Source: Azolla caroliniana (taxonomy: Eukaryota > Plantae > Polypodiophyta). Taken from it: a DNA stretch of 64,000 bases. Position 1 is the stretch's first letter. Each line of letters starts with the position of its first letter. Under the pieces are notes generated by a model, which saw only the letters and a program-made list of their open reading frames with translations, was not told the DNA's origin and did no database searches. This document shows, in pieces, positions 2,985 to 63,473 of this stretch. Made by a program: the position numbers and the translations under genes. The DNA lies in assembly GCA_043228905.1 (NCBI GenBank), contig JBHGNT010000008.1:21390001-21454000 (forward strand), read 5' to 3'.

Positions 2985-3776
2985 ATGACTTCTCGACGAA
3001 ACCATAAGGAAACACACGACGAAATGATAAGTAAGGAAGAATTTTTAGATGTCCTTAACCGGTTAGTAAAATTTGAAAAATGGGCGAAAGAAATTGAAGC
3101 TGAAAAACAAAAAGATAAGGAAGAAAAAGAACTACTTTTTGCGGAAATAGCGAAACTTAAGGTAGATAATGTGAACCTCCGAAAACAAGTTAAGGACCTC
3201 GAGATATCTAGGGAAGATGGTGAAATATCTTCCCTAGAGGATATTAAGGACGAGATAAAAAAGGTTAAAGAAGAGGTTAAAAGTGATATGGAATTAGCTA
3301 AAACTGGGTGGGTTGATGTAGTAAAACGTAATATTAAAAAAGAACTAAAGGATGAAAACATTGTAAACACTACCCTCGAGGAAGAAAAAATGCGTCAAGC
3401 TCGACGCCTAAATGTACGAGTTACTGGGCTCAAGGAAGGGGCATCTCCGGATGAAGATGCACAAACATTAGGGAAAATGTTAGGGTACGAAGCCCTACCA
3501 ATCACTAAAACCTGGAGGGTAGGGCGTGACACAACTAGGAAAAGAGCTTTAGTCCTTCAGTTTAAGGACTCAGAATCTAGAATCGCCTTTTTTAAAAAGA
3601 GACCAATTCTTCGAGGCTTGGGCGGGGAGCCTATCTACCTCGATGAAGACTTGACCAAGATGCAAATTGAGCATCGTAAAACTTGTATGCCACGAGTCAT
3701 ACAAGCTCGTAAAGAGGGGCATCGTGCTTTCTACCGGGACGGACGTGTCATAATAAATGATCGTGCCGCCAATTGA
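2985..3776 (+). CDS. LINE ORF1 (coiled coil plus RRM/CTD-like domain), 263 aa
   Basis: First ATG at 2985; E/K-rich heptad region, then RRLNVRVTGLKE...RVGR...LVLQF...IYLDEDLT. Confidence 0.85.
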   Translation: MTSRRNHKETHDEMISKEEFLDVLNRLVKFEKWAKEIEAEKQKDKEEKELLFAEIAKLKVDNVNLRKQVKDLEISREDGEISSLEDIKDEIKKVKEEVKSDMELAKTGWVDVVKRNIKKELKDENIVNTTLEEEKMRQARRLNVRVTGLKEGASPDEDAQTLGKMLGYEALPITKTWRVGRDTTRKRALVLQFKDSESRIAFFKKRPILRGLGGEPIYLDEDLTKMQIEHRKTCMPRVIQARKEGHRAFYRDGRVIINDRAAN

Positions 3777-3782
3777 CGGCGT

Positions 3783-36404: not shown

Positions 36405-36519
36405 AGTAGTTTACCACAAAAGGCCCAAAGCGGGGATGCAACTTCAAGTTTTGCCAAAGTGTTGTTTTGGCAAAACTTGAAGTTGCATCCTCGCTTTGGG
36501 CCTTTTGTGGTAAACTACT
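36405..36519. repeat. Near-perfect inverted repeat (54-bp arms, 7-nt loop)
   Basis: 36405-36458 vs 36466-36519 with one mismatch, which is a G:U pair in RNA. Confidence 0.95.
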
Positions 36520-37736: not shown

Positions 37737-38253
37737 TGTTGAGAAATCGTTGCGGAATAAATCACAATAATCGAACTACGAGCTAAAATACGAATCACAC
37801 TACAATGCAAGAAAGACAAGATAAGCGACTATACACAGAGATTTACGTGGAAACCCTAAAACGGGGAAAACCACGGGAACAAATTCTTCATTATACAAAT
37901 AGTGGATATACAATAGCGAGAGGAATACAACACTCTGTCGAGTGCATCAACCGCATAGGGCTCTTCGCGTCTGTTGTTACACACACAACTATGGCGCGGC
38001 TCTTGCTTCTTCTCTCACACTCTCTCTGCACACAGTTCTGTACATACAAACTTTTGTTCTGTTCTACACAGTTAAAGTTTGCCCTAGTTACATATATACT
38101 TATGCAACTTTTTTGGCTATTTACATACATAGCCCTCATGGAGCGCACACATTGACTATTTACAAATATAGTCTCCCGAGTTGGCTATTTCCACAATTCC
38201 AATTTTGGCCGAGGCCTATCAACTCAGCTCCTCAACTGTCAACTTTCCGAACG
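37737..38253 (-). mobile_element. Probable Copia solo LTR, distantly related to the D family
   Basis: Starts TGTTGAG; shares ACGTGGAAACCC...AAAACCACGG, AAGTTTGCCCTA and TTTGGCTATTTACA motifs with D LTRs; right end and TSD are uncertain. Confidence 0.65.
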
Positions 38254-38643
38254 ATTAGATCTTCCTCCCATATATTTTAACTTTACCCCTCCCCTTAACT
38301 TTTCTTTCTTTTAGTAGCTTTTTAATGCAACCTCGCTTTCCTTTTATTTGTAGTTTCTACCTTTACCCATGTTTTACCATTTTATTTTATTTTTTTTCCT
38401 ACCCCTCCCTTTTTTCTCTCCATAACACTCTTCTCCTTTTTTATTCCCCTCTCTCTTTTTTTTTTTTTTCAAAGTAAAGCTACTTTCCCATTAGTTAGGA
38501 AGGATTATTACATAGAGTCTATAAGGAGATTTATACACACATCGGGGAGACTTCCTCCGATCAAGCCAAAGAAGATGAGCCACTTACATTGCCTTGCGGC
38601 CTAACTTAATGTAAGAAGCTACCTATATCCAAGGCAATGCCCT

Positions 38644-41600
38644 TCAATGTGGCCTCGTACGAGTCGGCTCTTGGGGCCTACACCGAAAAGAGGGTGGCAG
38701 GTGAATAGGAAACAACCAACGTGGGGGCTGGTAGTTCCACCTCGGGCCACTCCCGCCTTGCATCACCATAGGTGTGTTCCGCCATTTCTGCCAAAAGCGC
38801 AAACGGGCAGTGGTCACGTCGTTGGAGTGGCTGCAGATCTCTTCTAGTTGCCCTCGTAGGCAGCTGATAAGCGCGAACCATATGTCCATGATCACTTCCT
38901 CCGGGGGGCGTACCGTACCTTGGAAGACCTTGAGGCAACGCGCTTTCCATATATACCACAAGGTGAAACCTGCGATCAACATCCAGATTTCCGGAAACCT
39001 AGGGGATGCGGGCTGCAAGCCTCTTTCAAAACGGATCTTGACGATTTTGCCTCTCGTGCATACATAGCACCAACTATCCGCATTGACGGCGTCCGTCCAC
39101 CCTTCGACCGAGTGATCAATCCATGCCGCAGCGCTCCACGAGGCTGTTCCTTCAACGTCACATGCCACAAGGAGGCGAGTCACTCTATCCCATATCTTTT
39201 GAGCTTGAGGGCAATCCCACAAACAATGTCTCAGAGACTCATTAGGTAGAGAGCACAGTGGGCAGCCTAACGGGCCGCCCCGTTTATCTAACCATTCGCC
39301 AACGGGCACCACATTATGACCGATCTGCCACCAAAAGAGCTTGATCTTTTCAGGCATGTGGAGACGCCAAAGACCCTTCCAAAAGGCAATGAGCGCCTCA
39401 TCGGGGATGCCCAATGTTCGCCAGCCGTTGCGAAGGGGGCCGCCTCGCTGCAGTTGCAAAGTCCGACCCAATTTAGTGGTGTAATCGAAGAAGTGGTGGA
39501 GTCTATCGTCATGTTTCCATCTGAAATCCCCGGGGTCCCAATCCAGATCGACAAGGGGCCGGCAACCGTATACCCTTAACCTCCAATGGGGTTCCACCTT
39601 AGCAACATCCGGGTCTGTCTTCCAGATGTTATCAATCTGTGCCACCACTCGGATTGGGTGCCAAGAGCCGCTGCTCTGGCTGTCCCCAAAAACTGTATCA
39701 CTCCCCGATCCGCTCATGCCCTTTAGCGCCTTGACCATTCCAGCCTCGTCAAAGAGACCGAACCATGCATGTTCTCTCGCCACCCCCATCGGAACCCTGT
39801 CAACTGCCTCAGCTATCAGTCTCCGCATTTTCGTAGCTCCCTTGAGGGGAGGGAAAAGGACCTCTTGGGCTCTTCCTGAATCAGCCATGCGTCTCCAATC
39901 GTCTATAGATAGGAGGCCTGTTTGTGCCAACTTTCCCCATGCTAGGCCCTTAAGTTGCCCTAGCATCGCGTTGTCATTCGTTCGCACATGAGGATTCCAG
40001 AATAGTGGCTGTCTAGTCCATTCGGTCAATGTTTCCGGGGTGTGCTTGACCAAATGTTGTCGTATATGGCACCATGCCCGCAAGATGGAGTTCGTGACCC
40101 TATCCTCCGGATGGCAAGCCAGCCTGGGTGGGACTCCACTCGTGCAGCACCGATTCAAGGAGTCGGGCCAAGGCCTACCATACTTGGGAGTCCCTACTTG
40201 CAGCCTGTTGCGAAGAAGTACCTTCCAGCACCCCTTACCTGGCAGGAGGCAGCGAACCACCATTTTAGCCAGCAATGCACGACTCTGCATTAAGGGGTCT
40301 ATGAGGCCAAGCCCCCCTTTGGCCCGCGGTTGCGTTAACCAACACCATGAGACTCTGGCGGCAGCCCGTGGGTTGTCCTTACCTGACCATATAAACCCCC
40401 GAATGGCAGCCTTAATCGCGTGCAAACCTGCAGGGTCCATAATCCAGCATGAGACTGAGTGCCACATGGTAGCGAGCAGCACTTGGTTCGCCACAAGGAC
40501 CCTACCAGCGAAGGACAATTTTGATCTACTCCACTGGTTCAGCTTCTTACTTATTTTGGCTTGTACGTGGGCCAATTGAGCTCCCTTGGGGATTGACCTC
40601 CCCATCGTAAATCCAAGGTACTTGAAAGTCGTCCCACTAGGGACCCACGTAAAATCGGCATGGGGTTGCCATCTTGGTGTCTCCTGTTCGCTGAACCATA
40701 GACCTTGGGTTTTATTCCAATTGATCTTGGCACCAGCCGCCTGACAAAAGTCCTCGACAAGATGTTCAGCCCGCTGTAAATTCTCCTCATCACCTTGCAA
40801 GAAAAGAACCGTATCGTCGGCATATTCAGATAACAGCAAATCTTCAGTCGCATTGGGGATGGGCAATCCCCGCAACCCGCTAGTTGGTGCTTGTAAGTAG
40901 GCGGAGAAAGCCTCGGTTATAAAGAGATAGAGATATGGGGCTAGGGGACAGCCTTGCCTCACTGAGCGTTGTAGTTGGAAGGCGGGTCCCCTAGATCCAG
41001 CCATCAGCACGCTACTCGTAGCTGTCCGATAGAGTGCAGAAGTGCAATTCCTCCATTTTTGAGGTAGGCCCAAAGCTCTCATCACATTTTCCAAGAAGGG
41101 CCATAACACCCTATCGTAGGCCTTCTCAAAGTCTAGCATCAGAATAGCCGAGCTCGATACGGAGCGACCGGCCAATGCCATAGCTTCCCAAAGAAGCAAC
41201 ACATTATCAAAGATACACCTGTTCTTGACAAACCCAGTTTGATTGTCATGTATGATGTCCGGTAAGAAGCTTGCTAATCGCTGAGCAAGGACTTTAGCGA
41301 GTATCTTGTATGTCGTGTTAAGGATCGTGATTGGACGCCATTGGCGCAACTCTAGGCTTCGCTCTTGGGATTTGGGGATGAGATATATCATCCCCTCAGC
41401 CAGACCAATCGGCATCTTTCCTGAGGACCAAATCTCTTGGAACCCGGCTTCCAAGGACGGGATAACACATTCCCAATGAATCTCGAAGAAATCTCGTGAG
41501 AGACCATCGGGACCGGGGCATGCACCCCTTCGCAATCCCCTAAGTGCCTCCGAGAGCTCTAAACGAGAGATGGGACTATCGAGCACAACTTCCATCTCTT

Positions 41601-42957
41601 GGGTTACCTTGAGGTGAATGCAAGACATCACTCGATCAGCCAGCTCCGAGTTTTGCCGCACATGCGTAGGTGCGAGGAGGTCACGATAGTATTGTGTTGC
41701 CATTTCCAGAACCTCAGTCTTGTCCTCCGTTATTGAGCCGTCTGGTTTTCGCAGCCCGTGTATACGTCCACCACCACCCTTGGGTGCCTTGTAGTGAAAG
41801 AAATGTCGGTTGACCTTGTCGTCTTTTCTAGCCCACCATGCTGCGTTTCTTCGAAACAGCATTCGGTTCTTCTCCAAAGTCCTTTCATGTACCTTCATCT
41901 TTGCTTCCTCTAGTTTAGCTCTAGACCATTTGCAACCAGGGTCTACCTGTAACAGCCGTTGCGCTGCCGCAACGGCCTTCCTTAATTTTGTTTCAATGGC
42001 TCTAACCTGTTGGAGGGCGCGCTTGGTCTCTTGTTGTAAAAAGGAGGACGAGCGGGCCAATTTTTTCTGCAGATCTTCGCTGGCTGATTTACTGCCCATG
42101 GTGTCCTGCCATATACTCTGTAAACCGGCCTTCACCTCTTCACTCTTCATGATCTTTATGGGGATCTTTACATTGAGACTGCCCTTGCTATCGTTGGGTG
42201 GGTTAAGGTCTAGTCTCACCGGCTGATGATCTGAAAAGGTAAGGCCTGCCAAGATAGCAAAGGAGCCCCCGAGCTCTTCGAGGGATGAGCTGATGTATAT
42301 GCGGTCTAGCCGTGCAAGACTACCGCCCCTAGCATTCCCGTCGGCTCTAGAAAAGTGCAGCGAATGTGAGCTTCGCCTAAGGGAAGAGCCCCATGTATCC
42401 TTCACCCCGATTTTGCCAATTAGGAAAGCCCATGAATCTAGCTCCGCACCATAAATAGGCCTCTGGGTCCCTCCTTTCCTATCTCCCATGTGTTCAGTCA
42501 TGTTGAAATCACCTACCATTACCCAAGCCTCGACATTAGGTAATGTTGTCGCGAGCATCCTCCAAAAGATTGCTCTCTCGGGGGCTGAGTTAGGGGCATA
42601 AATGTTTAGCACCCCAATCTGTAGGCGATTCCATTTCAGAAGCACGTATAAGGCCCGACCCTCCACCAGCGTGCCAGATGATGTTACTTCGTATCGGGCC
42701 TTATCGCTGATCGAGATGCAGACCCCTCCTCTTCGGTGGAGGTCACCCTGCGCAGCCGACCACCATGTGGTCCACCCACCCGACAAGGGGTTTACTAAGC
42801 TCTGAGTTCGCTCTTGCGAGAGGTGGTGTTCCTGCAAAAGCAATATGTCAATATGGCCCCCTATATTAAGGGGATTCAACTCCTCCTGAAGTCTTCTACA
42901 CTCTTGGTGTTGTCGGCCTCCACCAAGGCCCTGTACATTCCACGTTAGGATCCTCAT
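38644..42957 (-). CDS. L1 ORF2: AP endonuclease, RT and zf-RVT (1437 aa)
   Basis: TWNVQG, LQEHH, IYAP, GDFN, RLDRIY, SDH; LDFEKAYD, RQGCPLAP, YADD; CPLC...HCLWDC. Confidence 0.95.
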   Translation of the reverse strand: MRILTWNVQGLGGGRQHQECRRLQEELNPLNIGGHIDILLLQEHHLSQERTQSLVNPLSGGWTTWWSAAQGDLHRRGGVCISISDKARYEVTSSGTLVEGRALYVLLKWNRLQIGVLNIYAPNSAPERAIFWRMLATTLPNVEAWVMVGDFNMTEHMGDRKGGTQRPIYGAELDSWAFLIGKIGVKDTWGSSLRRSSHSLHFSRADGNARGGSLARLDRIYISSSLEELGGSFAILAGLTFSDHQPVRLDLNPPNDSKGSLNVKIPIKIMKSEEVKAGLQSIWQDTMGSKSASEDLQKKLARSSSFLQQETKRALQQVRAIETKLRKAVAAAQRLLQVDPGCKWSRAKLEEAKMKVHERTLEKNRMLFRRNAAWWARKDDKVNRHFFHYKAPKGGGGRIHGLRKPDGSITEDKTEVLEMATQYYRDLLAPTHVRQNSELADRVMSCIHLKVTQEMEVVLDSPISRLELSEALRGLRRGACPGPDGLSRDFFEIHWECVIPSLEAGFQEIWSSGKMPIGLAEGMIYLIPKSQERSLELRQWRPITILNTTYKILAKVLAQRLASFLPDIIHDNQTGFVKNRCIFDNVLLLWEAMALAGRSVSSSAILMLDFEKAYDRVLWPFLENVMRALGLPQKWRNCTSALYRTATSSVLMAGSRGPAFQLQRSVRQGCPLAPYLYLFITEAFSAYLQAPTSGLRGLPIPNATEDLLLSEYADDTVLFLQGDEENLQRAEHLVEDFCQAAGAKINWNKTQGLWFSEQETPRWQPHADFTWVPSGTTFKYLGFTMGRSIPKGAQLAHVQAKISKKLNQWSRSKLSFAGRVLVANQVLLATMWHSVSCWIMDPAGLHAIKAAIRGFIWSGKDNPRAAARVSWCWLTQPRAKGGLGLIDPLMQSRALLAKMVVRCLLPGKGCWKVLLRNRLQVGTPKYGRPWPDSLNRCCTSGVPPRLACHPEDRVTNSILRAWCHIRQHLVKHTPETLTEWTRQPLFWNPHVRTNDNAMLGQLKGLAWGKLAQTGLLSIDDWRRMADSGRAQEVLFPPLKGATKMRRLIAEAVDRVPMGVAREHAWFGLFDEAGMVKALKGMSGSGSDTVFGDSQSSGSWHPIRVVAQIDNIWKTDPDVAKVEPHWRLRVYGCRPLVDLDWDPGDFRWKHDDRLHHFFDYTTKLGRTLQLQRGGPLRNGWRTLGIPDEALIAFWKGLWRLHMPEKIKLFWWQIGHNVVPVGEWLDKRGGPLGCPLCSLPNESLRHCLWDCPQAQKIWDRVTRLLVACDVEGTASWSAAAWIDHSVEGWTDAVNADSWCYVCTRGKIVKIRFERGLQPASPRFPEIWMLIAGFTLWYIWKARCLKVFQGTVRPPEEVIMDIWFALISCLRGQLEEICSHSNDVTTARLRFWQKWRNTPMVMQGGSGPRWNYQPPRWLFPIHLPPSFRCRPQEPTRTRPH

Positions 42958-44423
42958 CCGAAAACGGTGACGTTGGCGCCCATGTTCGGGCCGATCTCCA
43001 TGTCATGGGGCAAACTAACACCTGTTTCGGGGGGTATGGTCTCCACTGCAGGCTGCAAATCCCCTACAAGATTCTCAGCCGGTCGTTCTCGACCCGCTTC
43101 AAATAGATCCCGCGATACATTTGTGCTCCGAAGCGGTGGCACAACTTGCACCCCTCTATCTAACAGAGTCGTCGCCAAACTAGGTGTTGGTCTTCCTATC
43201 TTACCCTTTTCTTTGTCCTTGAGCTTGCCCGTCCGGATCCACGATTTCACTAATCTGAGGCCACTACCACATTCCCGCTCCACCGGGAGGGGGGGCTGTG
43301 CCAGCTTCTCTTCCGGGGTGGGCGGTACAAGTTGGGGTTGCATCTCCATCGGGGTGGAGAACACGAGTTCGGGCTCCCGCGGGGGAAGGCGTGAGGAGTC
43401 GCACGGGGATAGCATTGCTGCCAGCGCTGCTGGGTCGCCATCCCCTAACCCTTGAAGAAGTGTAAATCTGTTGGTAGCTCTCACCTGTAGGTCGGGTGCC
43501 TTGGCACTCCCGGAGAGGATCTTTACTCGTTTCAAGGGTTGCTCGTCCACGCTTGCTGGTGACAAGGTGGCAGGACTTCTTTCAAGGGGGTGGTCATGAA
43601 AGAGGGCGGGAGAGGAGGCACCTAGGCCTCCAAGTTTCCCCTTCTTCTTAACGGGTAGCCAAGGAGCTTCTTCACCCTTGGATGTCCCGACTTTGCCCGA
43701 GGGTCGTGGTCCCGAGCTTCCCTTTCCAATCTTACGAGGACACTCCTTAGCTAGGTGTCCTGTCTGTTTGCAAATGAAACACTGCCCCGGGAGTCCCTCA
43801 AAAACCACTTTTACCACTGTGAGGCCTAACTCCTCAGAGTAGAGTCTAATCCTTGATGGAAGTCCATGGAGGGAAGGCACCAAGATACGCAACTTGGGCA
43901 CCTCTGCGACTGTGTCTGCCATTGACGCTTTTTGAGGGCATATCATTCCTACTTGTTCGCCAAAAAGAGGGAGCAGATGGTACAAATGTGGAGGGAGGCC
44001 AGGAAATGTTGCGGTGATCACCCTAGGGTTGTTGAGTTTCCGTAACTCTTCGATCGGATTGAACCCTGGTGACCATGGTTGGAGCAACACCTTGCCGTAC
44101 TTCAGTTCGAGTACCTTGAGCTCGACCAATGGCTGCGCCAGCGAGTCATTACCTAATTCAATGTGGAAGAAGTTTTTCCCTAAACCCCTGACACTCTTGA
44201 TTACCGGCATGTTCTCCAACACAGCCACCTGAAACATGTCCCGAACCATGCCCCGACTTGGTCTACCTGCCAGAAACCTACATACGAAGGAGGTACGCCG
44301 TAGGCGTTCGATTTCTTCCGCTAAGACACGGTTAGCCTCGGGGGACAGGGTAATGGCGAGATCTGATCCACCTTCTTCATCGAGCAAATTGGACGCTGGT
44401 GGAAGCTCGATTCCTCCCATCAT
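42954..44423 (-). CDS. L1 ORF1 (DUF4283-like RRM plus CCHC knuckle), 489 aa
   Basis: LGKNFFHIEL, LLQPWSPGF and CFICKQTGHLAKEC, followed by a disordered tail. Confidence 0.9.
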   Translation of the reverse strand: MMGGIELPPASNLLDEEGGSDLAITLSPEANRVLAEEIERLRRTSFVCRFLAGRPSRGMVRDMFQVAVLENMPVIKSVRGLGKNFFHIELGNDSLAQPLVELKVLELKYGKVLLQPWSPGFNPIEELRKLNNPRVITATFPGLPPHLYHLLPLFGEQVGMICPQKASMADTVAEVPKLRILVPSLHGLPSRIRLYSEELGLTVVKVVFEGLPGQCFICKQTGHLAKECPRKIGKGSSGPRPSGKVGTSKGEEAPWLPVKKKGKLGGLGASSPALFHDHPLERSPATLSPASVDEQPLKRVKILSGSAKAPDLQVRATNRFTLLQGLGDGDPAALAAMLSPCDSSRLPPREPELVFSTPMEMQPQLVPPTPEEKLAQPPLPVERECGSGLRLVKSWIRTGKLKDKEKGKIGRPTPSLATTLLDRGVQVVPPLRSTNVSRDLFEAGRERPAENLVGDLQPAVETIPPETGVSLPHDMEIGPNMGANVTVFG

Positions 44424-44826
44424 AGCGAGTTATGTGTCTTGCGAGCCTAGGTTGTATGTGTTGTTCTTCCCTTCCCCCTTTGTTTTGTGTTTTTTTTAGT
44501 GTGTTACTTTGCGTTTTCTGGTTGGGGGAGGGAGGGAGGATTGTGTGTGAGAGTACCTGGACAGCAATTGGCGTTGTGCTCCTCCTCTTACTCTGTTGGA
44601 CAGCGCGCGTGTTCCTCAGTGTGCACCTACTCCTGCTCCTGCACGCCTTTTCCTGCTGCTCCCACTCCGCGCTCTGCTGCGTTTGCTCCCGCCAACGCTC
44701 TGCTGCTTATTACCTGCAGTTCTCCAGTGTGACGGCTTGGACAGCAGTTGGCGCCTCTGGCTCTGTTGGGTAGCGCGCGCGTTCCTCAGCGTGCACCCGC
44801 TCCTGCTCCTTCTTTCATAGCTATGG

Positions 44827-44865
44827 TTCCCCTCTCTCTTTAAATTCTTGGTTGCCCCATATATT

Positions 44866-44916
<51 letters not shown>

Positions 44917-45725
44917 TTTCATATCCTCTTTTGTCACTCTCCATCTCTCTCTCTTCCTCTATCTTTCTTACTTTTATATCCTATTTTCTCTCTCTCTCTC
45001 TCTCTCTCCCCCCCCCCCTACCTCTACCCCTCCCTTTACTTTTGTATTTCCACCCTACCCCTAACCTTAACCCTCCCTAGCTCACACCAAGTGTATCAAA
45101 CGGTTTAGGTGCGCTCAAATTGTTCTTGGTGAACCTTTCACTTCACCCCCACTTTGTCAATTTACCCCCCTACCCCTCCCTTACCTTCTTAAATTACCCT
45201 CCTACCCTTCCTCCTCACTTTTTCAAAATTACCTTTCTACCCCTCCCACTTTTTCTTATTACCACCCTACCCCTCCCCTAAACCCCCAACTCATTTCTTA
45301 AAAACTAAACACCCTACACCCACCCCTCCTCTCTCTATATCTTTTTCCTTTTTTTTCTCTCTCTCACACTTAAGCTATCACTTCTCCCTCTCTTAGTTTT
45401 TTCCTTTCCTCTCTCAAAATCTTTTCCTATCCTATTTTATCCACCTTTCTATTTTTGTTTTTCTACCCTCACCCATGTTTTACTTTTTCTTACCCTACCC
45501 CTCCCCATCCTCTTCCTAAATCTATAGCCTTCCCCCTTTTTCTTTTCTTCTTTCCCCACACTTGTCTCTCTCCTTTACCTCTCTCCTATTTCCTTTCTCT
45601 CTCTTACTTTGTCTAGTTTACACATGCATCTCTCTCCTCTCTCTACCCTCTTTCTCTCTCTTACTTTTATCTCGTTTTCCCACCCTTGATCCTCATAGCT
45701 TACTCACTCCCCTTATGTCTACTCA

Positions 45726-45773
<48 letters not shown>

Positions 45774-46085
45774 CCTTCCTTTCTCATTATCTCACATACT
45801 TTCCTTATTTCCCCCTCAATCTTAACTTCCCTTTTAATATTTCCCCTCATTTTACATTTCATATCCTAACTCCCTCTTTTCTTCTTATCACTCCTTAACA
45901 TTATAACCTCTTTTCCCTTATACCAAAACCTCCCCCTTGTCACATTAAAGCTCATAATATCCTTTTCTTTCTTCTCCAAATCTTCCCCTTTTTCAAATCA
46001 TATCCATAAGCACACACCCCCACTCCCTATTGTCATTTCTCTAAACACTCTCCTAAAACTCCTTATATAAACCTATGCACCCCTA
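44827..46085. repeat. Polypyrimidine low-complexity tract with (TC)n and ACCCTACCCC-like units; continues at 38255-38455 across the L1
   Basis: The + strand is almost devoid of G over ~1.3 kb. Confidence 0.85.
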
Positions 46086-46144
46086 ATGATCATTTTAGCA
46101 CTGATGAGCCCCGCGGTGGGCGAAACTAGTTTGCTCTTGACCAT
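46086..46144 (+). ncRNA. Minimal type-I hammerhead ribozyme motif
   Basis: AGCA-CUGAUGA-GCCC(CGCGGU)GGGC-GAAA-C(UA)G-UU-UGCU: complete catalytic core, stem I AGCA/UGCU, GC-rich stem II, palindromic helix III ACUAGU; distal stem I AUGAUCA/UGACCAU. Confidence 0.8.
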
Positions 46145-46589
46145 ATCCCAATGTAATTTCTTTTTCAATCTTAATGATAATTAGTAATAGCTTTGCTCTC
46201 TATCACTCTCTCTCTCTCTCTCTCTCTCTCTCAACATGTTAGTAACATTTGTTTTAGTCTTTTTAATTAATACTTAATGACTAGCCCTCTCTCCCTTTCT
46301 CATTATATGTTTAGATATTTTAGTTATATTTAAGTTTTAATCCCCATAATAATTTAAGTTATCAAGGTTTAATCTCTCTCTCTCTCTCTCTCTCTCTCAG
46401 ACATGCACCGATGATACACCATTTGCACTCCTTGTCGACGATCGTATGATCAACAAAACTCATGAGTCCCTCATCAACTCGGCTCCTCGATTGTTGGCTT
46501 TCCCGACAGTCGGATCTTCCTCCCACTGGAGGGACATATTCCCAACAATCTAGATGCCAAATCCAAGTAACCAAATTTTTTTATAGAAA

Positions 46590-50815: not shown

Positions 50816-51618
50816 AGAGGATTCGAACCTTGAACCATTTATTCCTCCAATGGAAAAGGTCAAACACCCAAAATACATACATAGACCAAACCAAAAAGGA
50901 AGAAAGGACCAAATACATACATAAGAGAGAGAAACACAGAGAGACAGAGAGAGAGAGCGTTGAACAATCAGAAACAGGGGAGGCAAGAGTAGTAGAAAAC
51001 AGAAGGAGAAACAGAGCAGAGAGAAAAGCACAACAAAACGCGCTTCTTCCTTAAATCATCTCTCTCTCTCTCTCTCTCTCTCTGTGTAAGTAACCCATTA
51101 TGTACTTCTGTTGATCTGAAAAAGAGAAAACACAGGCAAAAAAACACCATAAACCCTAAAAACAGACAAAACAAAACAGACAGAGAAATAGATAGATAGT
51201 TAGATAGAGAGAGATAGAGAGAGAAAGCCATTAGAAGGAAGAAGAAGAAAAAGTCCCCATACATACCCTTTCTTCCTTCCCCTGTATTCTTGCTTCTCTC
51301 AGGCTATACTACTACTAGTATATTACCACGTCCTCTCCACTTCTAAAATTGTCTCATCTCTCTGTGTCTCTCTGTCTCTTCCATAACTTCTTTCCTTTTC
51401 CCCTTCACTCCCCTGTTTCTCCTAGTCTGCTACCTTACTCTGTTTCCTTCCTCCCCTGTTTCTCCTCCTTGTTGATTATTCCCTTCCCCCCCTCACCTTC
51501 ATTTTTGGGTTGATTCCTCCCTAATTGTGGTCCATTTCTGTGCCCCCCCCCCCCCCCCTCCCCTGTCCAAAGATTTGTGTCTCCTTTTTGGGCCCCCGCC
51601 TCTTCCAATTTCCCACCT

Positions 51619-54600
51619 ATGGCTTCTTCGATTCCTCCTCCCCGAGGAGGGGGAGGGGGAGGGGGAGCCGGGAGCCGATCGTTTCGAAGCCAATCCTCGG
51701 ACAACAGCCCCATCCCCGAGGGCAGTTCCGCGAACGCGTTCTACCGCCGGATGGCTCGGGCCGATTCCTCCGACATGGACGCCAGCAGTGAGATCGGATC
51801 TGTCAACGGAGGCTACACTGTCGTCATCCCTCCCACCCCCGACAACAACCCCACCACCACCACCACCACCACCACCACCGAAAACCATGAGCCCGACCAG
51901 AAATTGGTGTCCAATAGCATCTTCACCGGTGGTTATAACAGCGTAATTCGAAGCCATCAGCTCGACAAAATGACCGATGGGGTAGCCCTGGACGACAATT
52001 CACACTTGGGCTTGGGCGGTGGCATCGGCCACACTTGTATGATGGATGGTTGCGACGCCCGAGCCATGCGGAATGAGCGAGGCGAAGAAATAAACCCATG
52101 CCAATGTAACTTCAAGATATGCAGAGATTGCTATATCGATGCAGTCAAGGCAGGAGGGAAATGCCCCGGTTGTAAAGAGCTTTATAAGGACGATGATCAA
52201 GACCCGTATTCGCCTACTCCTCTCTCATTGCCAGCGCCACCGCCTATTCAGCCTTATCTTGACCGACGGCTCTCAGTGGTCAAGTCAAAGAAGCAAACAC
52301 ATCAGCTATCTACGACAACAATGAATAAGAGGTCGAATCAAGGTTATGATTTCGACCACACGAATTGGCTCTACGAGACCAAAGGTACCTATGGATTTGG
52401 AAATGCAGTGTGGCCCAAGGAAACCGACCCTTACACGGGTATCATGGCCGGAGGGCCTATCCCTGACTTCAAAGATCGAGCCCGCCGCCCACTCTCTCGG
52501 AAAATCAAGGTCCCAGGCGGCATCCTCAGCCCTTACAGGTATGCGTGCTTGTTATATATACACTTTGTCTTATTCTTGATCCATAGGCTATTGAATCTCA
52601 AATGGAGTTGAGCCTTTTGTTTATCTAATGATTGTGAATCACTACTCTAGACACACTTGATTTTGTTGTTGTCAGTGCTTAGGTTGTAGATCATCATCTA
52701 TAGGCTTGACCTTTATTCCTACACTTGATCATAGTGCCAATACACATAATCTTTGTTTCACTACCCATTGATCTTGTAGTACTTCATTTGTGTTCCCATT
52801 GATTTTTTTTATCATGGAAGATTCATTTGTGTTTCTTGTTACCACCCCTTTTGCAGGCTTCTTGTGGTGGTTAGATTTGTTGTTTTGATCCTCTTTTTGA
52901 TATGGAGAGTGTCACATCCAAACACGGGTGCTATGTGGCTATGGGGAATGTCGATTGTTTGTGAGATTTGGTTTGCATTCTCATGGATATTAGATCAGTT
53001 GCCAAAGCTTTGCCCCGTGAACAGAGCGACAGACTTAGCTGTGCTCAAGGATAAATTCGAGCAACCTAGTCCAGGGAATACAAACGGAAGATCAGATCTT
53101 CCAGGGCTCGATATCTTTGTATCAACAGCAGATCCTGAGAAAGAGCCCCCGCTGGTGACGGCCAATACTATCCTCTCGATTCTGGCCGCCGATTACCCCG
53201 TGGAAAAGCTGTCATGTTACCTTTCTGATGATGGTGGTGCATTGCTAACTTTCGAGGCTATGGCTGAAGCAGCAAGCTTTTCTAGGGTTTGGATACCTTT
53301 TTGTCGAAAACATAACATTGAGCCACGTAACCCCGAGTCTTACTTCAATCTCAAAGGTGATCCTACCAAGAATAAGGTGCGACCGGATTTTGTTAAGGAT
53401 CGCAGGAGGGTAAAGAGAGAATATGATGAATTCAAGGTGAGGATTAATGGGCTTCCGGAATCAATCCGAAGGAGGTCTGATGCTTATAATGTTCACGAGG
53501 AAGTGAAAGCGAAGAGAAATCAACATGAGAACGGGCTTGACTTAACCGAGCCTCTTAATGTCACCAAAGCTACATGGATGGCAGATGGTACTCATTGGCC
53601 AGGGTCATGGACAACACAAAGCACCGAGCACAAGAAGGGAGACCATGCCGGCATCATCCAGGTAAAAAGATTGGATTGGGCTCTTATGTTATAATAATAA
53701 AAGGCACTTATGTATTTTGGAACATTAATCAGTGAAAAATGAGGGGTAAATATTCCATTGAAAAACTAAACATGGCCAATAACATGTGCTTACTTTACTC
53801 TTCTATGAGTAAAAGAGCCATTCAGTTATATCCGTGCTTCTAATTTTGTCGGCATTTGCTGGTGTGTCAGGTCATGTTGTCTCCACCGAGGCCCGACCCT
53901 GTGTATGGTAATACGAATGAGGAGAATCTTATCGACACGACCGACGTTGATGTCCGCCTTCCGATGCTCGTCTATGTCTCCCGCGAGAAACGTCCGGGTT
54001 ACGACCACAACAAGAAGGCAGGAGCCATGAACTCGTTAGTGCGTAGCTCGGCCATAATGTCGAACGGACCGTTCATCCTTAACCTCGATTGTGACCATTA
54101 TGTGTATAACTCTCAGGCGTTCCGCGAGGGCATATGTTTCATGATGGACCGCGGAGGCGAGAACATTTGTTATGTGCAATTCCCTCAGAGATTCGAAGGT
54201 ATAGACCCAAGTGATCGCTACGCGAATCACAACACCGTTTTCTTCGATGGAAACATGAGAGCGTTGGATGGTTTGCAAGGTCCGATGTATGTTGGGACTG
54301 GATGTATGTTTAGGAGAATTTCCCTTTATGCGGTCGACCCACCTAGATACAAGGATCGGGGTAGCTTTTGCTCTCGCGTTTTCTGTTGTGGAGGGAGCAA
54401 GCGGAAGAAGCAAAGGCAAGTGCATTCGAACATGCAGCAGAAGAAGAAGCTCGATATCGACTCGGTGTCTGTGATGGAGGACGACGATGAGGATCAAGAG
54501 ATGCAGCTCGTGCCGAAGAAGTTTGGGGCATCGGGCACCTTCCTGATGTCGATACCGAAGGCCGAGTTTCAAGGCCGCCCGTTGGCGGACCACCCGGGCA

Positions 54601-55643
54601 TCAAATTTGGCAGGCCACCAGGTGCTCTTACCGAGCCTCGTGAGCCGTTGGACCCCGCCACCGTGGCTGAGGCCATAAGTGTAATCTCATGCTGGTATGA
54701 GGATAAGACGGAGTGGGGCCGTAGTGTCGGGTGGATCTACGGTTCCGTGACTGAGGATGTCGTGACTGGGTACCGCATGCATAACCGCGGTTGGCGCTCG
54801 GTGTATTGTGTGACCAAAAGGGATGCCTTCCGAGGCACGGCACCAATCAACTTGACGGACCGGCTCCAACAGGTGCTGCGATGGGCGACCGGATCGGTCG
54901 AAATCTTCTTCTCTCGCAACAATGGCCTCCTTGCCGGGACCCGCATGAAGCTGTTGCAACGTATCGCATACCTCAACGTAGGTATTTATCCCTTCACCTC
55001 CATTTTCCTCATGGTCTATTGCTTCTTGCCCGCGCTCTCCCTCTTTACCGACCAATTCATCGTCGCCACGCTCGACGTGTTCTTCCTCATCTATCTCCTC
55101 GTCATCACGCTCACCCTATGCATGCTTGCGCTCCTGGAGGTGAAATGGGCGGGCATCACGCTCGAAGAATGGTGGCGGAATGAGCAGTTTTGGGTTATCG
55201 GGGGCACGAGTGCTCATATTGTGGCCGTGCTTCAAGGCTTGCTCAAAGTCATAGCGGGGGTGGACATTTCCTTCACGTTGACCTCGAAATCGTCTGGCGA
55301 AGATGAGAACGATGAGTTTGCGGAGCTTTATGAGGTCAGGTGGACATTTCTTATGATACCCCCACTCACCATCATGATGGTTAACATGATTGCGATTGCC
55401 GTAGCTGTGGCGAGGACCATATATAGTAGTGATCCATCGTGGAGCAAGTTGCTAGGGGGTGTCTTCTTCAGTCTCTGGGTGCTAGCACATCTGTACCCCT
55501 TTGCAAAGGGTCTTATGGGACGAAGAGGAAGAGTGCCGACCATTATCTGGGTCTGGTCAGGCCTTATTTCCATCACCATCTCTCTCCTATGGGTTGCCAT
55601 TAGCAATCCGCAAAGTCAATTCTCGTCAAGCTTCTCGCTATGA
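51619..55643 (+). CDS. CSLD: Cellulose synthase-like D; exons 51619-52538, 52857-53661, 53871-55643; 1165 aa
   Basis: CSLD N-terminus ([24 protein letters not shown]-like Cys, [12 protein letters not shown]); GT2 motifs DDG, DCD, TED, QVLRW. Two GT-AG introns give 3498 nt in frame. Confidence 0.96.
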
Positions 55644-57163: not shown

Positions 57164-57235
57164 TGTGGCTGCTGGGATTCGAGCCCAGGTCTCCACGGCC
57201 ACAACGTGGAATTCTAACCACTAAACTACAGCCAC
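57164..57235 (-). tRNA. trnH-GUG: tRNA-His (GUG), cytosolic
   Basis: GTGGCTGTAGTTTAGTGGTTAGAATTCCACGTTGTGGCCGTGGAGACCTGGGCTCGAATCCCAGCAGCCACA folds as a cloverleaf; oligo-T terminator ~30 nt downstream. Confidence 0.97.
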
Positions 57236-57825: not shown

Positions 57826-59517
57826 TCACATATGGGGGTTAGCCTCTGAATTCATGTGAATAAATTGATCAAAGCATCTATATCCTACTTCAACTTCCCC
57901 ATACATCTTACAAGCAGTAAGCATAGATGCCCACATTCCTTCGTCATATAATGGTCTTGGCACATTTTGTAATAAAAGCTTCTCGGCCTCTTTCACACCT
58001 CCAGACCGTGCCATGAGATCAATAATAGATGTGTAATGTCCAATGTTCGGCCTAATGTTGTACTTTTCTCTCATTGTTTCGAAATACTCCCAAGACTCAG
58101 TGACCATCCGAGCATGGCTGCATGCGGCAAGAAGACATGTAAAGGTTACTTTATCAGGCTTAACCTCTTGTTTTTGCATTTCATTGAAGCATTGTATCGC
58201 TAGTTTACCCTCATGGTTCATGGCATATGCATTTATGATCGAGTTCCATGCATATATATCTCGAATAGACAACATCCTGAACACTTCATGTGCCTCTAAA
58301 AGTAAGCCACTTTTTGCATACATCTTTATCAAAGAATTTACTATGAAGAGATCAGTATCATATCCCTTACATATGATCTCAACATATAATTCTTGCCCCT
58401 TTTCAATGGCCCCAACCTCACTACATGCCTTTAAAACACTTGCAAAAGTGACAACATCAGGGAAGAGTCTGTGCAATAGCATATCTTCAAATAATTTAAG
58501 TGCTTCATGATAAGGTCCATGTTCAGCAAAGCCGGCAATCAAAGAAGTCCATGATGTGGCATCCGCACAGATACCCTCCAGATGCATTTGTCCAAAACAC
58601 TTAAATGCTGCCCAAACAAAACCATGCTCTGCATACCCTTGAATCAACACATTCCAAGACACAACATTTCGAACGATGAGATTATCAAAAACTTCTTGTG
58701 CCTCTAGAAGCGCACCACATTTAGCATACATGTCAACCAATGTGTTTCCAAGCACTATATTTCCCCTCAATTTCTCTACGGGAATCTCCTTGCTTATTTC
58801 TCGGCCTTTGTCAATGGCTCTTATACTACCACATGCTTTCAGCACACAAACTAGTGTGAGATCATTCGGAGACACTCCCTCTTCTTGCATTTGTTTGAAG
58901 CATCGCAGTGCCTCTTCACCGGGCCCATATTCGGCATATCCCGAAATTAATGCCGTCCATGAAACCACATCCCGAACCACAAGATGCTCAAAAACCTCTC
59001 TTGCCTTCAAAACTGAACCACACTTCACATACATATCGATTAAGGTATTGTCCATGTAAAGATCTCTTATTTTAAACTTCATTATCTCAGCGTGCAACTT
59101 TCCCCCTAATTCGACACTTCTGGACCTTGAACAACCGCGCAAAAGTGCCATAAAAGTGTACATACTGGGATCGACTCCGTGCAATTTCATAGTTCTGTAG
59201 AGATCGAATGCCAGCATTACCTGTCCAGTATCGACATATGCACATATGAGTGCTGTCCATGAGTGCTCGTTTCGGTACGAAAGTTTCATCATAGCTTGCT
59301 CAGCCGAATGCATACATTCACATTCCACAAACATTTGCACTACATGGTTCCCTACTGATGAATGTGAATCCATTCCATAGCTACAAGCCATGACATATAT
59401 GGCCTTAGAGGAACTGACATTCTTCAACTTCTTACATTTTTGTAAGTTAAGGATCAAAGTTTCAACAGAAGGCACATCGTTTCCTTGTTTGAGAGTCTTG
59501 TACCCAAGAAAACCCAT
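57826..59517 (-). CDS. PLS-class pentatricopeptide repeat protein (RNA-editing factor type), ORF ending inside the E domain
   Basis: Repeated P-L-S motifs (NTLIDMYVKCG, DVVSWTALISGY, PDVVTFASVLKAC) and E1/E2 motifs (HYTSIIDLMARSG, WASMLTACKMYG). Confidence 0.88.
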   Translation of the reverse strand: MGFLGYKTLKQGNDVPSVETLILNLQKCKKLKNVSSSKAIYVMACSYGMDSHSSVGNHVVQMFVECECMHSAEQAMMKLSYRNEHSWTALICAYVDTGQVMLAFDLYRTMKLHGVDPSMYTFMALLRGCSRSRSVELGGKLHAEIMKFKIRDLYMDNTLIDMYVKCGSVLKAREVFEHLVVRDVVSWTALISGYAEYGPGEEALRCFKQMQEEGVSPNDLTLVCVLKACGSIRAIDKGREISKEIPVEKLRGNIVLGNTLVDMYAKCGALLEAQEVFDNLIVRNVVSWNVLIQGYAEHGFVWAAFKCFGQMHLEGICADATSWTSLIAGFAEHGPYHEALKLFEDMLLHRLFPDVVTFASVLKACSEVGAIEKGQELYVEIICKGYDTDLFIVNSLIKMYAKSGLLLEAHEVFRMLSIRDIYAWNSIINAYAMNHEGKLAIQCFNEMQKQEVKPDKVTFTCLLAACSHARMVTESWEYFETMREKYNIRPNIGHYTSIIDLMARSGGVKEAEKLLLQNVPRPLYDEGMWASMLTACKMYGEVEVGYRCFDQFIHMNSEANPHM

Positions 59518-59821
59518 GTCCGAGGAGAAATATCTTCTAGGATTACAACTTCTTATGCATACCTTTCATCAGATTTCCTCAACTTTTAGAGCAAAAGGAG
59601 CAATGGTGTGATCATTGATCTATCTCTCCAGGGTTGTTTTATAAAGAAACCAGACGATCATCCATCCATACCTGCGTTGAAGAAAGAGATCAAGTGATAG
59701 GGCTTGCCCATGAGTTGGATGTGATTCGGGGGAGCATCAGATTACGGTGCATATCTTGCATATTCCTGAGATCATCATCCATGGCCAGAGCTTAGCGAAA
59801 AGAGCAGAGTGGCAAAGGTCT

Positions 59822-61526: not shown

Positions 61527-63269
61527 TCATGCACCAGCGAGAACATTGTGATTGCAATGTGAAAGTGACCAGACTTTGATGGTTTCATCAATGCTCCTAG
61601 TGTAGATGATACAACTTGAGTCCATGTCTAAGATTTGAGGGTGAGTATGTTGGTTGGAAGAGACAAAGATGGACTTCACGGGACCATCATGTCCCTCAAG
61701 CATGCCAATGCGGCGTAAATGCGCCCGGGTGTGAACAAACAATCCTCTCTTGCCGTTGTGATGGAAATCCAAACTCGAAACTCCATTTCCACAACTTGAG
61801 CTTCTTTCTTGCAACTTTCTTTGTAGATACAGGGTGCGAGGAGGTGTGGCATTAACACAACTTTTCATCATGCAAGCATCATGAGAATAGCCAAGACAAT
61901 GACTTTTTGGCATGGAATCAAGAGGAGTGGCATCATCATTACTCTTTGATGTGGTATCGAGATTGGTAACAAGTGCATCGTTGTCATGATAGTGACATGT
62001 GGAAGCATCGTCATTATTGGCACCAAGGATATTGAGCTTCCATATGCTACTCTTTGACACTTTAGTGACATCTCCATCAATACCATCAACATGGGTATCG
62101 ACTTTCCATACGCGCACCGTCTTGTCTGCGGAGCCGCTTAAGAGGACTTCTCCGTAGATCGTAGAGGCAACAATGCACAAGCACAGGATGGGCAACCGAT
62201 GTGCACGTCGGGACTCACGAAGCTCTCCGATGTAATCCCGGCCCTCGCCTTTCCCCCATATGCATATAACTCCATCGGAGCCCCCGGAGAAGAGAAGCTC
62301 ACCATCGTTACTAAGGGCTAGGGAATTCACCGATGTCGACGTGGCATGGCCCCGGCCCCCGCAAAGTGTGGTGATACAAACATGTTTCTTCTTCTTCTCC
62401 TTCTTCTTTGACAACCACACGGACAAGTGGCTACTGTCCGATTCATCGTCTCCTTCTCTTCTCCACACTTTGATGGTCCCATCCGAGGAGCTCGTGTATA
62501 GAAACCCATCGGGACTCGCGACCATGGCTTGTACCGCATCGTGATGGGCTGGGAAACCTTCTAGACACTTGAGGTCCTTGAGTCTCCAAACTTTGATGGT
62601 TTTGTCCCAAGACCCAGAGTAAAGGACTGGTGATGAATCAAGAGAGCCTAGGGCAAGGCATGAGATGGTATCAGAATGCTCAATCCATAGCCTCTTCTCA
62701 TGTCTCCTAACTTGCACATAATTCCTTTGTGAGAGGCCCTTTATGAAGCAATCCTTTCTCCTAGGCATTGAACCAATTTGCTTGTGCTTTGGAATGAATG
62801 GCTCTGAGCCCTTCCTCCTCCTTCCTTCATCTTCTCTACTCCTCTTGTTGGTCTTCATCCAAACCCTAATTCTGGGCTCTCCGCCGTGTGCCGAGAAGAT
62901 GCGGCCGCCCGCCGACACCATAGCTTTGATGCTTGGGCCTCCTAGCATAATCCCCTCATGTTGTTGTTGTTGTTGTGAGAGAGCAGAGATGCTTGTGGGA
63001 GCAGCAGTGGATATGGTCTCTAACAAGCAATGAGAAAGCTGTGGCTCATCTGTCTTGGTGAGTGAGGAGGATCCATGGAAGCTTCCATGATGAGTAGGGG
63101 AGGAAGTAAGAGAGGAAAACAAAGAAGAATCGGATTGATCACAAGAAGAAGAGGATTGATCAGAAGAAGAAAGGAGGAGGTGTAGGCAAGGGTCAGACTT
63201 GGATTGATCGATGGAGATCTTCATCTCCATAGCTTCTTCTTCTTCTTTGTGGATTGGGTCAAATTCCAT
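61527..63269 (-). CDS. Intronless WD40-repeat protein, JINGUBANG-like (580 aa)
   Basis: NYVQVRRHEKRLWIEHSDTISCL, LYSGSWDKTIKVWR, AHHDAVQA, LSGSADKTVRVW, GHDGPVK. Confidence 0.88.
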   Translation of the reverse strand: MEFDPIHKEEEEAMEMKISIDQSKSDPCLHLLLSSSDQSSSSCDQSDSSLFSSLTSSPTHHGSFHGSSSLTKTDEPQLSHCLLETISTAAPTSISALSQQQQQHEGIMLGGPSIKAMVSAGGRIFSAHGGEPRIRVWMKTNKRSREDEGRRRKGSEPFIPKHKQIGSMPRRKDCFIKGLSQRNYVQVRRHEKRLWIEHSDTISCLALGSLDSSPVLYSGSWDKTIKVWRLKDLKCLEGFPAHHDAVQAMVASPDGFLYTSSSDGTIKVWRREGDDESDSSHLSVWLSKKKEKKKKHVCITTLCGGRGHATSTSVNSLALSNDGELLFSGGSDGVICIWGKGEGRDYIGELRESRRAHRLPILCLCIVASTIYGEVLLSGSADKTVRVWKVDTHVDGIDGDVTKVSKSSIWKLNILGANNDDASTCHYHDNDALVTNLDTTSKSNDDATPLDSMPKSHCLGYSHDACMMKSCVNATPPRTLYLQRKLQERSSSCGNGVSSLDFHHNGKRGLFVHTRAHLRRIGMLEGHDGPVKSIFVSSNQHTHPQILDMDSSCIIYTRSIDETIKVWSLSHCNHNVLAGA

Positions 63270-63473
63270 GGATTATACTCTGTTTTTTTTCCTTTTGGGC
63301 AAAATGCTCTGTTTCTATGGTGAGTGAGAGGAACAGAGTCACTTCCTGTTTTTATATAACACACATCACACCTAAAAGTTTATTCTTTTCTTTCCCTTCA
63401 ATTCCAACGTTTCTTCTTACTTTCTTTGGTTGTCTATCCCTTTTGATTCTTCACCAAACGGTCATATACATAG

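What the first reader, a model, noticed from the sequence alone, without database searches (positions are those of the whole stretch)
46086..46144. Minimal hammerhead ribozyme with a palindromic helix III at the end of a G-free tract
Seen: a perfect core of CUGAUGA (46101-46107), GCCC/GGGC stem II, GAAA (46122-46125) and triplet GUU, with predicted cleavage after 46131. Stem I is extended through an internal loop, and helix III is reduced to the palindrome ACUAGU. It is a GC island in sequence that otherwise lacks G. Known: such minimal type-I hammerheads mark Penelope-like elements and non-LTR retrozymes and cleave efficiently as dimers. Inference: this is the terminus of an unannotated non-autonomous Penelope- or retrozyme-like element. 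No PLE RT or GIY-YIG ORF and no second ribozyme is visible in the window.
Basis: partly seen in the sequence, partly recalled or inferred. Interest (0 to 1): 0.8.

Follow-up and report, generated by a model that had tools for sequence, protein, structure and literature searches.

The report
Hammerhead in nuclease-less plant Penelope element
This is a conserved, likely self-cutting RNA motif inside a broken copy of a protein-free plant jumping gene. Its partner elements have no detectable DNA-cutting enzyme, yet copies lie all along the chromosomes, some between unusually long duplicated flanks, so they likely enter through existing DNA breaks.

Summary
The hammerhead is real, at the stated coordinates, and multi-copy: 265 genome matches to a general pattern versus 0 reversed, with compensatory changes across 19 variants. 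It is a canonical type I motif, not a minimal one, and it is not the terminus. It lies 334 nt inside the 3' end of a 5'-truncated copy of a 2.2-kb non-autonomous Penelope-like (PLE) unit. That copy is split by an L1 and sits in a solo LTR between 57-bp duplicated flanks. The unit keeps the start of ORF1 and a covarying 3' hairpin signal shared with two-ORF PLEs that have no GIY-YIG domain and group with a Selaginella protein. Such elements are described as telomeric, yet 35 of 37 family matches lie over 1 Mb from contig ends. Of 27 freshly sampled insertions, 6 carry 119-982-bp target duplications. Likely mechanism: priming at staggered host breaks. Cleavage and expression are untested. A hammerhead-less, 5S-headed unit carries the same signal. 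The scan noted related things before, in this genome and in others. Verdict: new variant of a known kind.

The parts
46086..46144 (+). Type I hammerhead motif; predicted cleavage after 46131; two changes weaken distal helix I
46125..46130 (+). Helix III palindrome ACUAGU; ACAUGU or AUGCAU in other families, a palindrome in 19 of 19 variants
44842..46465 (+). 3' piece of the non-autonomous PLE copy: pyrimidine-rich filler, hammerhead, 3' region
38271..38458 (+). 5' piece of the same copy (5'-truncated), up to 94% identical to other family copies
46425..46451 (+). Conserved 3' signal: GCACTCCTTGT box (46425-35) plus 4-bp/tetraloop hairpin (46440-51); inferred RT recognition and initiation site
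38459..44826 (-). L1-type LINE inserted later into the PLE copy (ORF2 38644-43002 with APE, RT, zf-RVT; ORF1 42954-44429)
38444..38458 (.). Left copy of the LINE's 15-bp target duplication (exact right copy at 44827-44841)
38215..38270 (.). Left copy of the PLE's flanking duplication; abuts the 5' junction
46469..46525 (.). Right copy of the PLE's flanking duplication, 43 of 57 identical to the left; empty-site LTR relatives carry it once
37737..46547 (.). Host solo LTR (TG...CA ends, 5-bp flanks matching 4 of 5) that the PLE interrupts

Best explanation
The motif is a canonical type I hammerhead inside the 3' region of a decayed, L1-interrupted copy of a 2.2-kb protein-free Penelope-like element, which is likely copied in trans by the reverse transcriptase of two-ORF relatives with no detectable endonuclease and likely enters chromosomes at staggered DNA breaks made by the host. 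Steps. (1) Shown: the unit runs ORF1 start - pyrimidine filler - hammerhead - box and hairpin, and occurs as 5'-truncated copies and partial tandems. (2) Inferred: tandem copies give more-than-unit RNA, linear or circular. (3) Inferred from fixed 3' ends: the RT binds the box, hairpin and ORF1 start, and begins copying about 18-36 nt past the box. (4) Inferred from long duplications: the primer is a 3' end at a break with long complementary overhangs; the other end may be extended by telomerase or by a second RT, then the ends are joined. (5) Predicted: the hammerhead cuts only as a dimer and weakly, trimming multimers or making circles; it does not set the ends of insertions. The window copy is probably no longer active.
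For: Unit period 2,218 bp; partial tandems in L033, L035, L037, L039, L048, L050. The unit's first 96 nt match four ORF1 starts at 51-56 positions, 0/10,000 shuffles as high. Autonomous relatives: 404 candidates, 150 scored; homologous hammerheads follow the RT ORF. Six RTs have DKN, no CxC and a 58-aa A-B spacing, and end about 210 aa after the catalytic DD, against 344-362 aa in GIY-YIG-bearing ones. PF01541 has 1 match in the genome and no RT within 1.5 kb of it. Five own RTs group with Selaginella and Cryptomeria proteins at 100/99. 3' ends cluster after the box in all families listed; the hairpin is 94.6% paired with 3 of 4 pairs changing on both sides in 14 variants; the junction pattern gives 71 vs 0. 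Internal initiation near the ORF start is shown in vitro for a lizard PLE (PMC11167929). Two-sided duplications: 6 of 27 fresh ends (982, 125, 119, 229, 818, 286 bp); earlier sample L032 1058, L042/L043 242, L133 162, L134 411, L137 737, L141 484, L170 35 bp. L134 and L190 carry TTTAGGG repeats at the 5' junction; L170 and L207 carry an inverted second end. A15.1-U16.1 has probability 0.0 in the monomer; the palindrome duplex is -4.8 kcal/mol.
Against: No cleavage or RNA data. The exact autonomous parent was not found among the loci examined. 21 of 27 fresh ends show no two-sided duplication of 20 bp or more within the fetched flanks, and 13 of the 40 loci could not be scored. The window's duplication is only 75% identical while the element is about 95% identical to its closest relatives, and this LTR family can repeat that segment by itself (L260). 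The one-sided control was not zero: 11 of 153, against 18 of 51 real ends. A divergent nuclease could escape PF01541, and intact L1 endonucleases are present. Loci were chosen by carrying a hammerhead or RT, which biases the test for cleavage-site starts. H17 is U in 18 of 19 variants; recalled knowledge says this cleaves poorly, and it allows a competing 10-bp duplex of -8.4 kcal/mol.
Confidence: 0.72

Rival explanations
1. Same element, but the nicks come from an endonuclease supplied in trans (L1 APE or an undetected PLE nuclease), as in ordinary target-primed reverse transcription with a distant second nick.
For: Intact L1 ORF2s with an APE domain lie in the window. A Dualen LINE makes duplications of median 900 bp, attributed to its two nucleases (PMC9977147 passages).
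Against: The sequences at the start of the duplications shown share no common motif by eye. PF01541 has one hit, away from any RT. Telomeric filler at two 5' junctions suggests an exposed free end.
Confidence: 0.14
2. An ordinary telomere-attaching EN-minus PLE: copies were added at chromosome ends or healed breaks and moved inward by later rearrangement.
For: L088 and L092 carry CCCTAAA-like repeats between hammerhead and ORF1 and form tandem arrays. L031 ends in CCCTAAA repeats 78 kb from a contig end. Published EN-minus PLEs are generally terminal (PMC8557442 passages).
Against: 2 of 37 family matches lie within 1 Mb of a contig end, median 6.5 Mb. The family unit has no telomeric repeats next to the hammerhead. 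Two-sided duplications and the intact host LTR show insertion in place.
Confidence: 0.07
3. A non-LTR retrozyme that multiplies as a circular RNA, with the hammerhead defining its ends.
For: Type I hammerhead with palindromic helix III; head-to-tail copies; a preprint derives animal retrozymes from PLE ends (10.64898/2026.07.22.740005, part 1 of 5). A circular template would also give partial tandems.
Against: The unit is 2.2 kb, against about 300 bp (PMC7229834 passages). It keeps an ORF1 start. Ends are fixed at the box and hairpin, not the hammerhead. A hammerhead-less unit with the same signal is abundant.
Confidence: 0.05
4. Chance resemblance in a pyrimidine-rich repeat.
For: Single-copy fold z = 0.07; loose pattern not enriched; no Rfam hit.
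Against: 265 vs 0 pattern matches; compensatory changes; fixed position after PLE RT ORFs.
Confidence: 0.02

Closest known systems
Telomere-associated EN-minus PLEs of Selaginella moellendorffii (Coprina Sm1/Sm2) with canonical type I hammerheads (PMC4209133 parts 1-2; PMC8557442 passages)
   Same: Canonical type I hammerhead in the repeated end; RT without GIY-YIG; own RTs are 38% identical to a Selaginella protein and group with it. That this protein is Sm1/Sm2 is inferred, not shown.
   Different: Many families, mostly chromosome-internal; long target duplications; non-autonomous derivatives; two ORFs with a candidate -1 frameshift; the window's family lacks telomeric repeats.
Athena/Terminon and fungal Coprina-1_Alen (PMC13159263, PMC12477314, PMC8557442 passages)
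   Same: ORF1 plus RT ORF2 with DKN and a basic N-terminal block; chains of joined units; telomeric repeats near the hammerhead in some families.
   Different: Those are at chromosome ends; these are mostly internal.
PAc Poseidon PLE of Anolis (PMC11167929, main text read)
   Same: Insert 3' ends fixed near the ORF start; hammerhead not needed for insertion in vitro.
   Different: PAc has a GIY-YIG nuclease and starts inside the ORF; here ends lie just before the ORF1 ATG.
Non-LTR retrozymes (PMC7229834 passages; bioRxiv 10.64898/2026.07.22.740005 part 1)
   Same: Non-coding, type I hammerhead, PLE-dependent, head-to-tail copies.
   Different: Animal, about 300-bp units; here a plant 2.2-kb deletion derivative that keeps the ORF1 start.
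PLE-X (Chlamys subclade) of Chara and Selaginella (PMC8557442 passages)
   Same: No identified nuclease, canonical hammerhead, non-telomeric insertion by an unknown route.
   Different: PLE-X has a CxC motif and Chlamys RTs have an IFD; neither is present here.
Dualen LINE long target duplications (PMC9977147 passages)
   Same: Duplications of hundreds of bp flank insertions.
   Different: Dualen has two endonucleases; none was detected here.

Membership tests
Canonical type I hammerhead | CUGANGA and GAAA boxes, NUH triplet, helices I and II | tested here: met
   the triplet is GUU
Canonical type I hammerhead | Helix III of 1-2 bp with a palindromic loop (dimer type) | tested here: met
   palindrome in 19 of 19 variants, three different sequences
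Canonical type I hammerhead | Match to an Rfam hammerhead model | tested here: not met
   no hammerhead family at E <= 5 over the window
Canonical type I hammerhead | Self-cleavage at the predicted site | not testable with these tools
   needs in vitro assay or raw RNA reads
min-HHR of metazoan PLEs | No helix III, long helix II, unpaired base before stem II | tested here: not met
   4-bp helix II directly after the box and a 6-nt palindrome (definition)
EN-minus PLE (Coprina/Athena) | PLE-type RT with DK motif and no GIY-YIG (in the partners) | tested here: met
EN-minus PLE (Coprina/Athena) | Hammerhead in the repeated end; 5' truncation; partial tandems | tested here: met
EN-minus PLE (Coprina/Athena) | Location at or near telomeres | tested here: not met
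   2 of 37 family matches within 1 Mb of a contig end; 3 of the 40 matches, on small contigs, were left out
EN-minus PLE (Coprina/Athena) | Reverse-complement telomeric repeats next to the hammerhead | tested here: inconclusive
   absent in the window's family and L095, present in L088 and L092
EN-minus PLE (Coprina/Athena) | RT falls in the Coprina clade | tested here: inconclusive
   groups with Selaginella and Cryptomeria proteins (39 rows, 6 left out), but no named Coprina or Athena reference was available
Chlamys / Naiad / PLE-X | CxC motif before DK and IFD between motifs A and B | tested here: not met
   no CxC; spacing 58 aa, as in animal PLEs at 59-63
Non-LTR retrozyme | Short (about 300 bp) tandem units, each with a hammerhead | tested here: not met
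   2,218-bp unit, mostly truncated monomers and partial tandems
Non-LTR retrozyme | Abundant circular RNA | not testable with these tools
   no raw RNA reads were offered
Plant LTR retrozyme | Type III hammerhead in LTRs, 4-bp TSD | tested here: not met
   type I topology; long variable duplications (definition)

The most novel reading that the evidence does not exclude
Endonuclease-less, telomerase-like PLEs in this plant have left the telomeres and spread by patching staggered host breaks, leaving duplications of up to 1 kb. Their RT needs only a short box, a tetraloop hairpin and the ORF1 start, not the hammerhead. This signal has been captured by many parasites, including a 410-bp unit with a 5S rRNA promoter, which would be a SINE driven by a Penelope RT; my one paper search for that pairing found none.
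Probability: 0.45. Interest if true: 0.8.

Novelty: new variant of a known kind. Interest (0 to 1): 0.57.

Why it matters
The ribozyme alone is an expected feature of plant PLEs. Its setting matters more. Craig et al. leave open how PLEs without an endonuclease insert away from telomeres (PMC8557442). This genome holds many such insertions with readable junctions, apparently intact RT ORFs, a short candidate RNA signal, and natural variants with and without the hammerhead. That makes both the priming route and the role of the hammerhead directly testable, in the closest mobile relatives of telomerase. It would also be a source of local duplications in plant genomes.

Tried and rejected
Rfam scan of the window: no hammerhead. 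Single-sequence folding and a loose pattern: uninformative. The RT fragment in L031 first looked like the parent; it has its own different hammerhead, so it is a neighbour in a chain. Parent search: 30 loci matching the ORF1 stub and 60 further 9.9-kb loci gave no long ORF behind this family's stub; 56 of 96 candidates were never scored. Duplication calls rejected: L192 (left copy far from the element), L159 and some L169 hits (repeats inside the element); ambiguous and not counted: L048, L160, L169, L041, L046, L034, L139; L164 (204 bp) is probable only. My first reading that the window copy has no duplication was wrong, because the L1 splits it. The pattern was mis-spaced and redone. Expression: no RNA holder listed; contigs of four runs of guessed kind were laid and three hold related sequence; this is no evidence on expression. 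Paper searches found no description of chromosome-internal Coprina-type plant PLEs with long duplications. Three key papers were not held (Gladyshev & Arkhipova 2007, Arkhipova et al. 2017, Lin et al. 2016), and I read no supplements. Lin et al. cover conifer EN-minus PLEs and may already report internal copies. The plant group was not tested beyond land plant (cellulose synthase and PPR genes).

Full report
1. Observation. Alone it is not significant: fold z = 0.07, loose pattern 3 against 8.6 expected, no Rfam hammerhead. The genome holds 125 candidates, of which 40 were scored at 87-100% identity. A tight family pattern gives 25 matches and a general one 265, both with 0 in the reversed control. 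In 19 variants chosen to span families, 97.1% of cells pair, 6 of 11 pairs change on both sides, and no shuffle of 500 reaches this (relatedness inflates the test). Helix III is a palindrome in all 19, in three different sequences. By the definitions in Cervera & de la Pena (PMC4209133, parts 1-2 of 4 read) this is a canonical type I motif, as they report for Selaginella PLEs, not a min-HHR.

2. The element. Copies share sequence out to about window 46460-46474, so the hammerhead is internal. Several loci hold partial tandems; the unit period is 2,218 bp. The junction between units keeps the start of an ORF1: 51-56 of 96 nt match four ORF1 starts of larger relatives, with 0 of 10,000 shuffles as high. 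Related non-coding subfamilies with their own hammerhead variants exist.

3. The window copy. Its 5' piece (38271-38458) and 3' piece (44842-46465) are separated by an L1 with an exact 15-bp target duplication. The whole lies in a solo LTR (37737-46547). A 57-bp LTR segment occurs on both sides and abuts both junctions. Of 11 LTR relatives examined, 8 showed the segment within the searched range, and 5 of them carry it once, followed by the LTR end. The two copies are only 43 of 57 identical, and most differences from the empty-site sequence are G-to-A or C-to-T. I read this as a decayed target duplication, with the caveat that L260 repeats the segment by itself. The copy is about 95% identical to its closest relatives and has lost 2 of 8 distal helix I pairs.

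4. Partners. The host is a land plant. PLE RT gives 404 candidates, 150 scored, many in long open frames and some in tandem arrays. These elements have ORF1 overlapping ORF2 at an A-rich site followed by a stable hairpin, a candidate -1 frameshift. The hammerhead follows ORF2. Pfam finds RT only. The RTs have DKN, no CxC and no IFD, and stop about 210 aa after the catalytic DD. GIY-YIG has one genomic match, with no RT within 1.5 kb. The nearest named proteins are from Cryptomeria and Selaginella; five own RTs group with them at 100/99, apart from the three GIY-YIG-bearing rows (6 rows left out). The exact parent of the window's family was not found.

5. Where copies end. Terminal copies of autonomous and non-autonomous families stop about 18-36 nt after a GCACTCCTTGY box, just before the ORF1 ATG. 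A 4-bp hairpin follows the box: 94.6% paired and 3 of 4 pairs changing on both sides in 14 variants. Box, hairpin and ATG together match 71 times against 0. I saw the box and the hairpin, after an earlier AI note had mentioned a second RNA signal. No copy starts at the cleavage site: 0 genome matches to a pattern for two subfamilies and 0 of 111 contexts in fetched loci (biased sample). This parallels the Anolis PLE, where RT starts internally near the ORF start and the hammerhead is dispensable for insertion in vitro (PMC11167929, main text read).

6. Where copies sit and how they joined. EN-minus PLEs are described as generally terminal (PMC8557442 passages). Here 2 of 37 family matches on chromosome-size contigs lie within 1 Mb of an end. 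In the first sample, 18 of 51 ends had an upstream duplicate starting at the 3' junction, against 11 of 153 random positions; 7 distinct events were clean on both sides (35-1058 bp). In a fresh sample of 40 hammerhead loci, 27 had a scorable terminal end, 7 had a duplicate and 6 were two-sided (119-982 bp). For comparison, EN-plus rotifer PLEs show 8-10 bp (PMC3846280 passages), and only the two-nuclease Dualen LINE reaches these lengths in the passages I read (PMC9977147). Two 5' junctions carry TTTAGGG repeats and two carry an inverted second end. By eye, junction overlaps are 0-5 nt.

7. Mechanism. Shown: anatomy, shared signals, no detectable nuclease, internal positions, long duplications. 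Inferred: more-than-unit RNA from tandem copies; RT recognition of box, hairpin and ORF1 start; priming on the 3' end of a staggered host break; extension of the other end by telomerase or a second RT; end joining. Duplications from breaks with complementary overhangs are described in PMC8355091 (search listing and start of abstract only). Predicted: the hammerhead works as a dimer, since the monomer helix III has probability 0.0 and the palindrome duplex is -4.8 kcal/mol, and weakly, since H17 is U in 18 of 19 (recalled to be a poor cleavage base). Rivals: a nuclease in trans (0.14), telomeric origin with later movement (0.07), retrozyme (0.05), chance (0.02).

8. A natural control. The filler in L207 is a unit with a 5S rRNA head (36.7 bits, gathering score 38, E 5e-6), the same box, a similar hairpin and an ORF1-type start, and no hammerhead box in the six copies printed. 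It has 446 candidates, 40 scored at 89-100%. Of 20 copies, 11 begin within 8 nt of a point 26 nt upstream of the 5S start, matching a 26-nt deletion inside the 5S part; 9 extend into the previous unit; 2 have 52- and 150-bp duplications. Pol III transcription is inferred, and a run of four T just after the predicted start argues against it. It suggests that the 3' signal suffices for mobility without the hammerhead.

9. Novelty. A hammerhead in a plant EN-minus PLE is known. I found no paper describing internal spread with long duplications, the 3' signal, these non-autonomous families or a 5S-headed PLE parasite, but three central papers were not held and supplements were not read. Unreviewed notes of this scan report the same kind of element in this genome, one with a telomeric reading that my position counts do not support for this family, and nuclease-less PLEs with long duplications in other genomes. 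These are leads, not support. Verdict: new variant of a known kind, interest 0.57.

Noticed in passing
L207:4320-4535 (minus); L211-L230; full unit in L215 and L212: About 410-bp unit with a 5S rRNA-derived head, the PLE 3' box and hairpin and an ORF1-type start, with no hammerhead; 446 candidates. Candidate SINE driven by a Penelope RT. Cassandra-type origin (recalled) looks unlikely because it ends in the PLE signal.
   Followed up: partly
L220, L228, L229, L158, L194, L160, L031, L036: Different PLE families joined head to tail exactly at the 3' signal, suggesting that the RT jumps between templates and builds chains.
   Followed up: partly
L134 (about 4627) and L190 (about 4463): Two to three TTTAGGG repeats between the left target copy and the element's 5' end, in chromosome interiors.
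   Followed up: partly
L088-L090, L092, L095 (C400, C22, C29, C32): Apparently intact two-ORF PLEs in tandem arrays of 4.7-6.1 kb period, some with degenerate telomeric repeats after the hammerhead.
   Followed up: partly
L089, L092, L094, L095, L098, ORF1/ORF2 overlap: Conserved A-rich site and a -19 to -31 kcal/mol hairpin at the ORF1 stop; candidate -1 frameshift signal.
   Followed up: partly
G000:C53:46051-164587: Five PLE unit starts spaced about 29.6 kb apart; a large tandem repeat or an assembly artefact.
   Followed up: no
Proteins P0018, P0023, P0025-P0028: Close RT relatives in Cryptomeria and a protein named Gb_11119, so this nuclease-less clade extends to seed plants.
   Followed up: partly
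L177, L185, L204, L149, L034, L155, L160: Several copies are 5'-truncated within about 25 nt upstream of the hammerhead core; possible RT stalling at helix I, but the sample is biased toward intact cores.
   Followed up: no
window 38459-44826 (minus) and 2907-7529 (plus): Two L1-type LINEs with long open ORF2s (1452 and 1250 aa).
   Followed up: partly
window 36419-36505: 87-bp near-perfect inverted repeat that draws weak miRNA model hits below gathering score; probably a MITE-like hairpin.
   Followed up: no
window 57164-57235 (minus); 51514-55643 (plus); 57826-59565 and 61527-63272 (minus): A tRNA gene, a cellulose synthase gene, a PPR gene and a WD40 gene; copia and gypsy fragments fill much of 9400-31100.
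   Followed up: no
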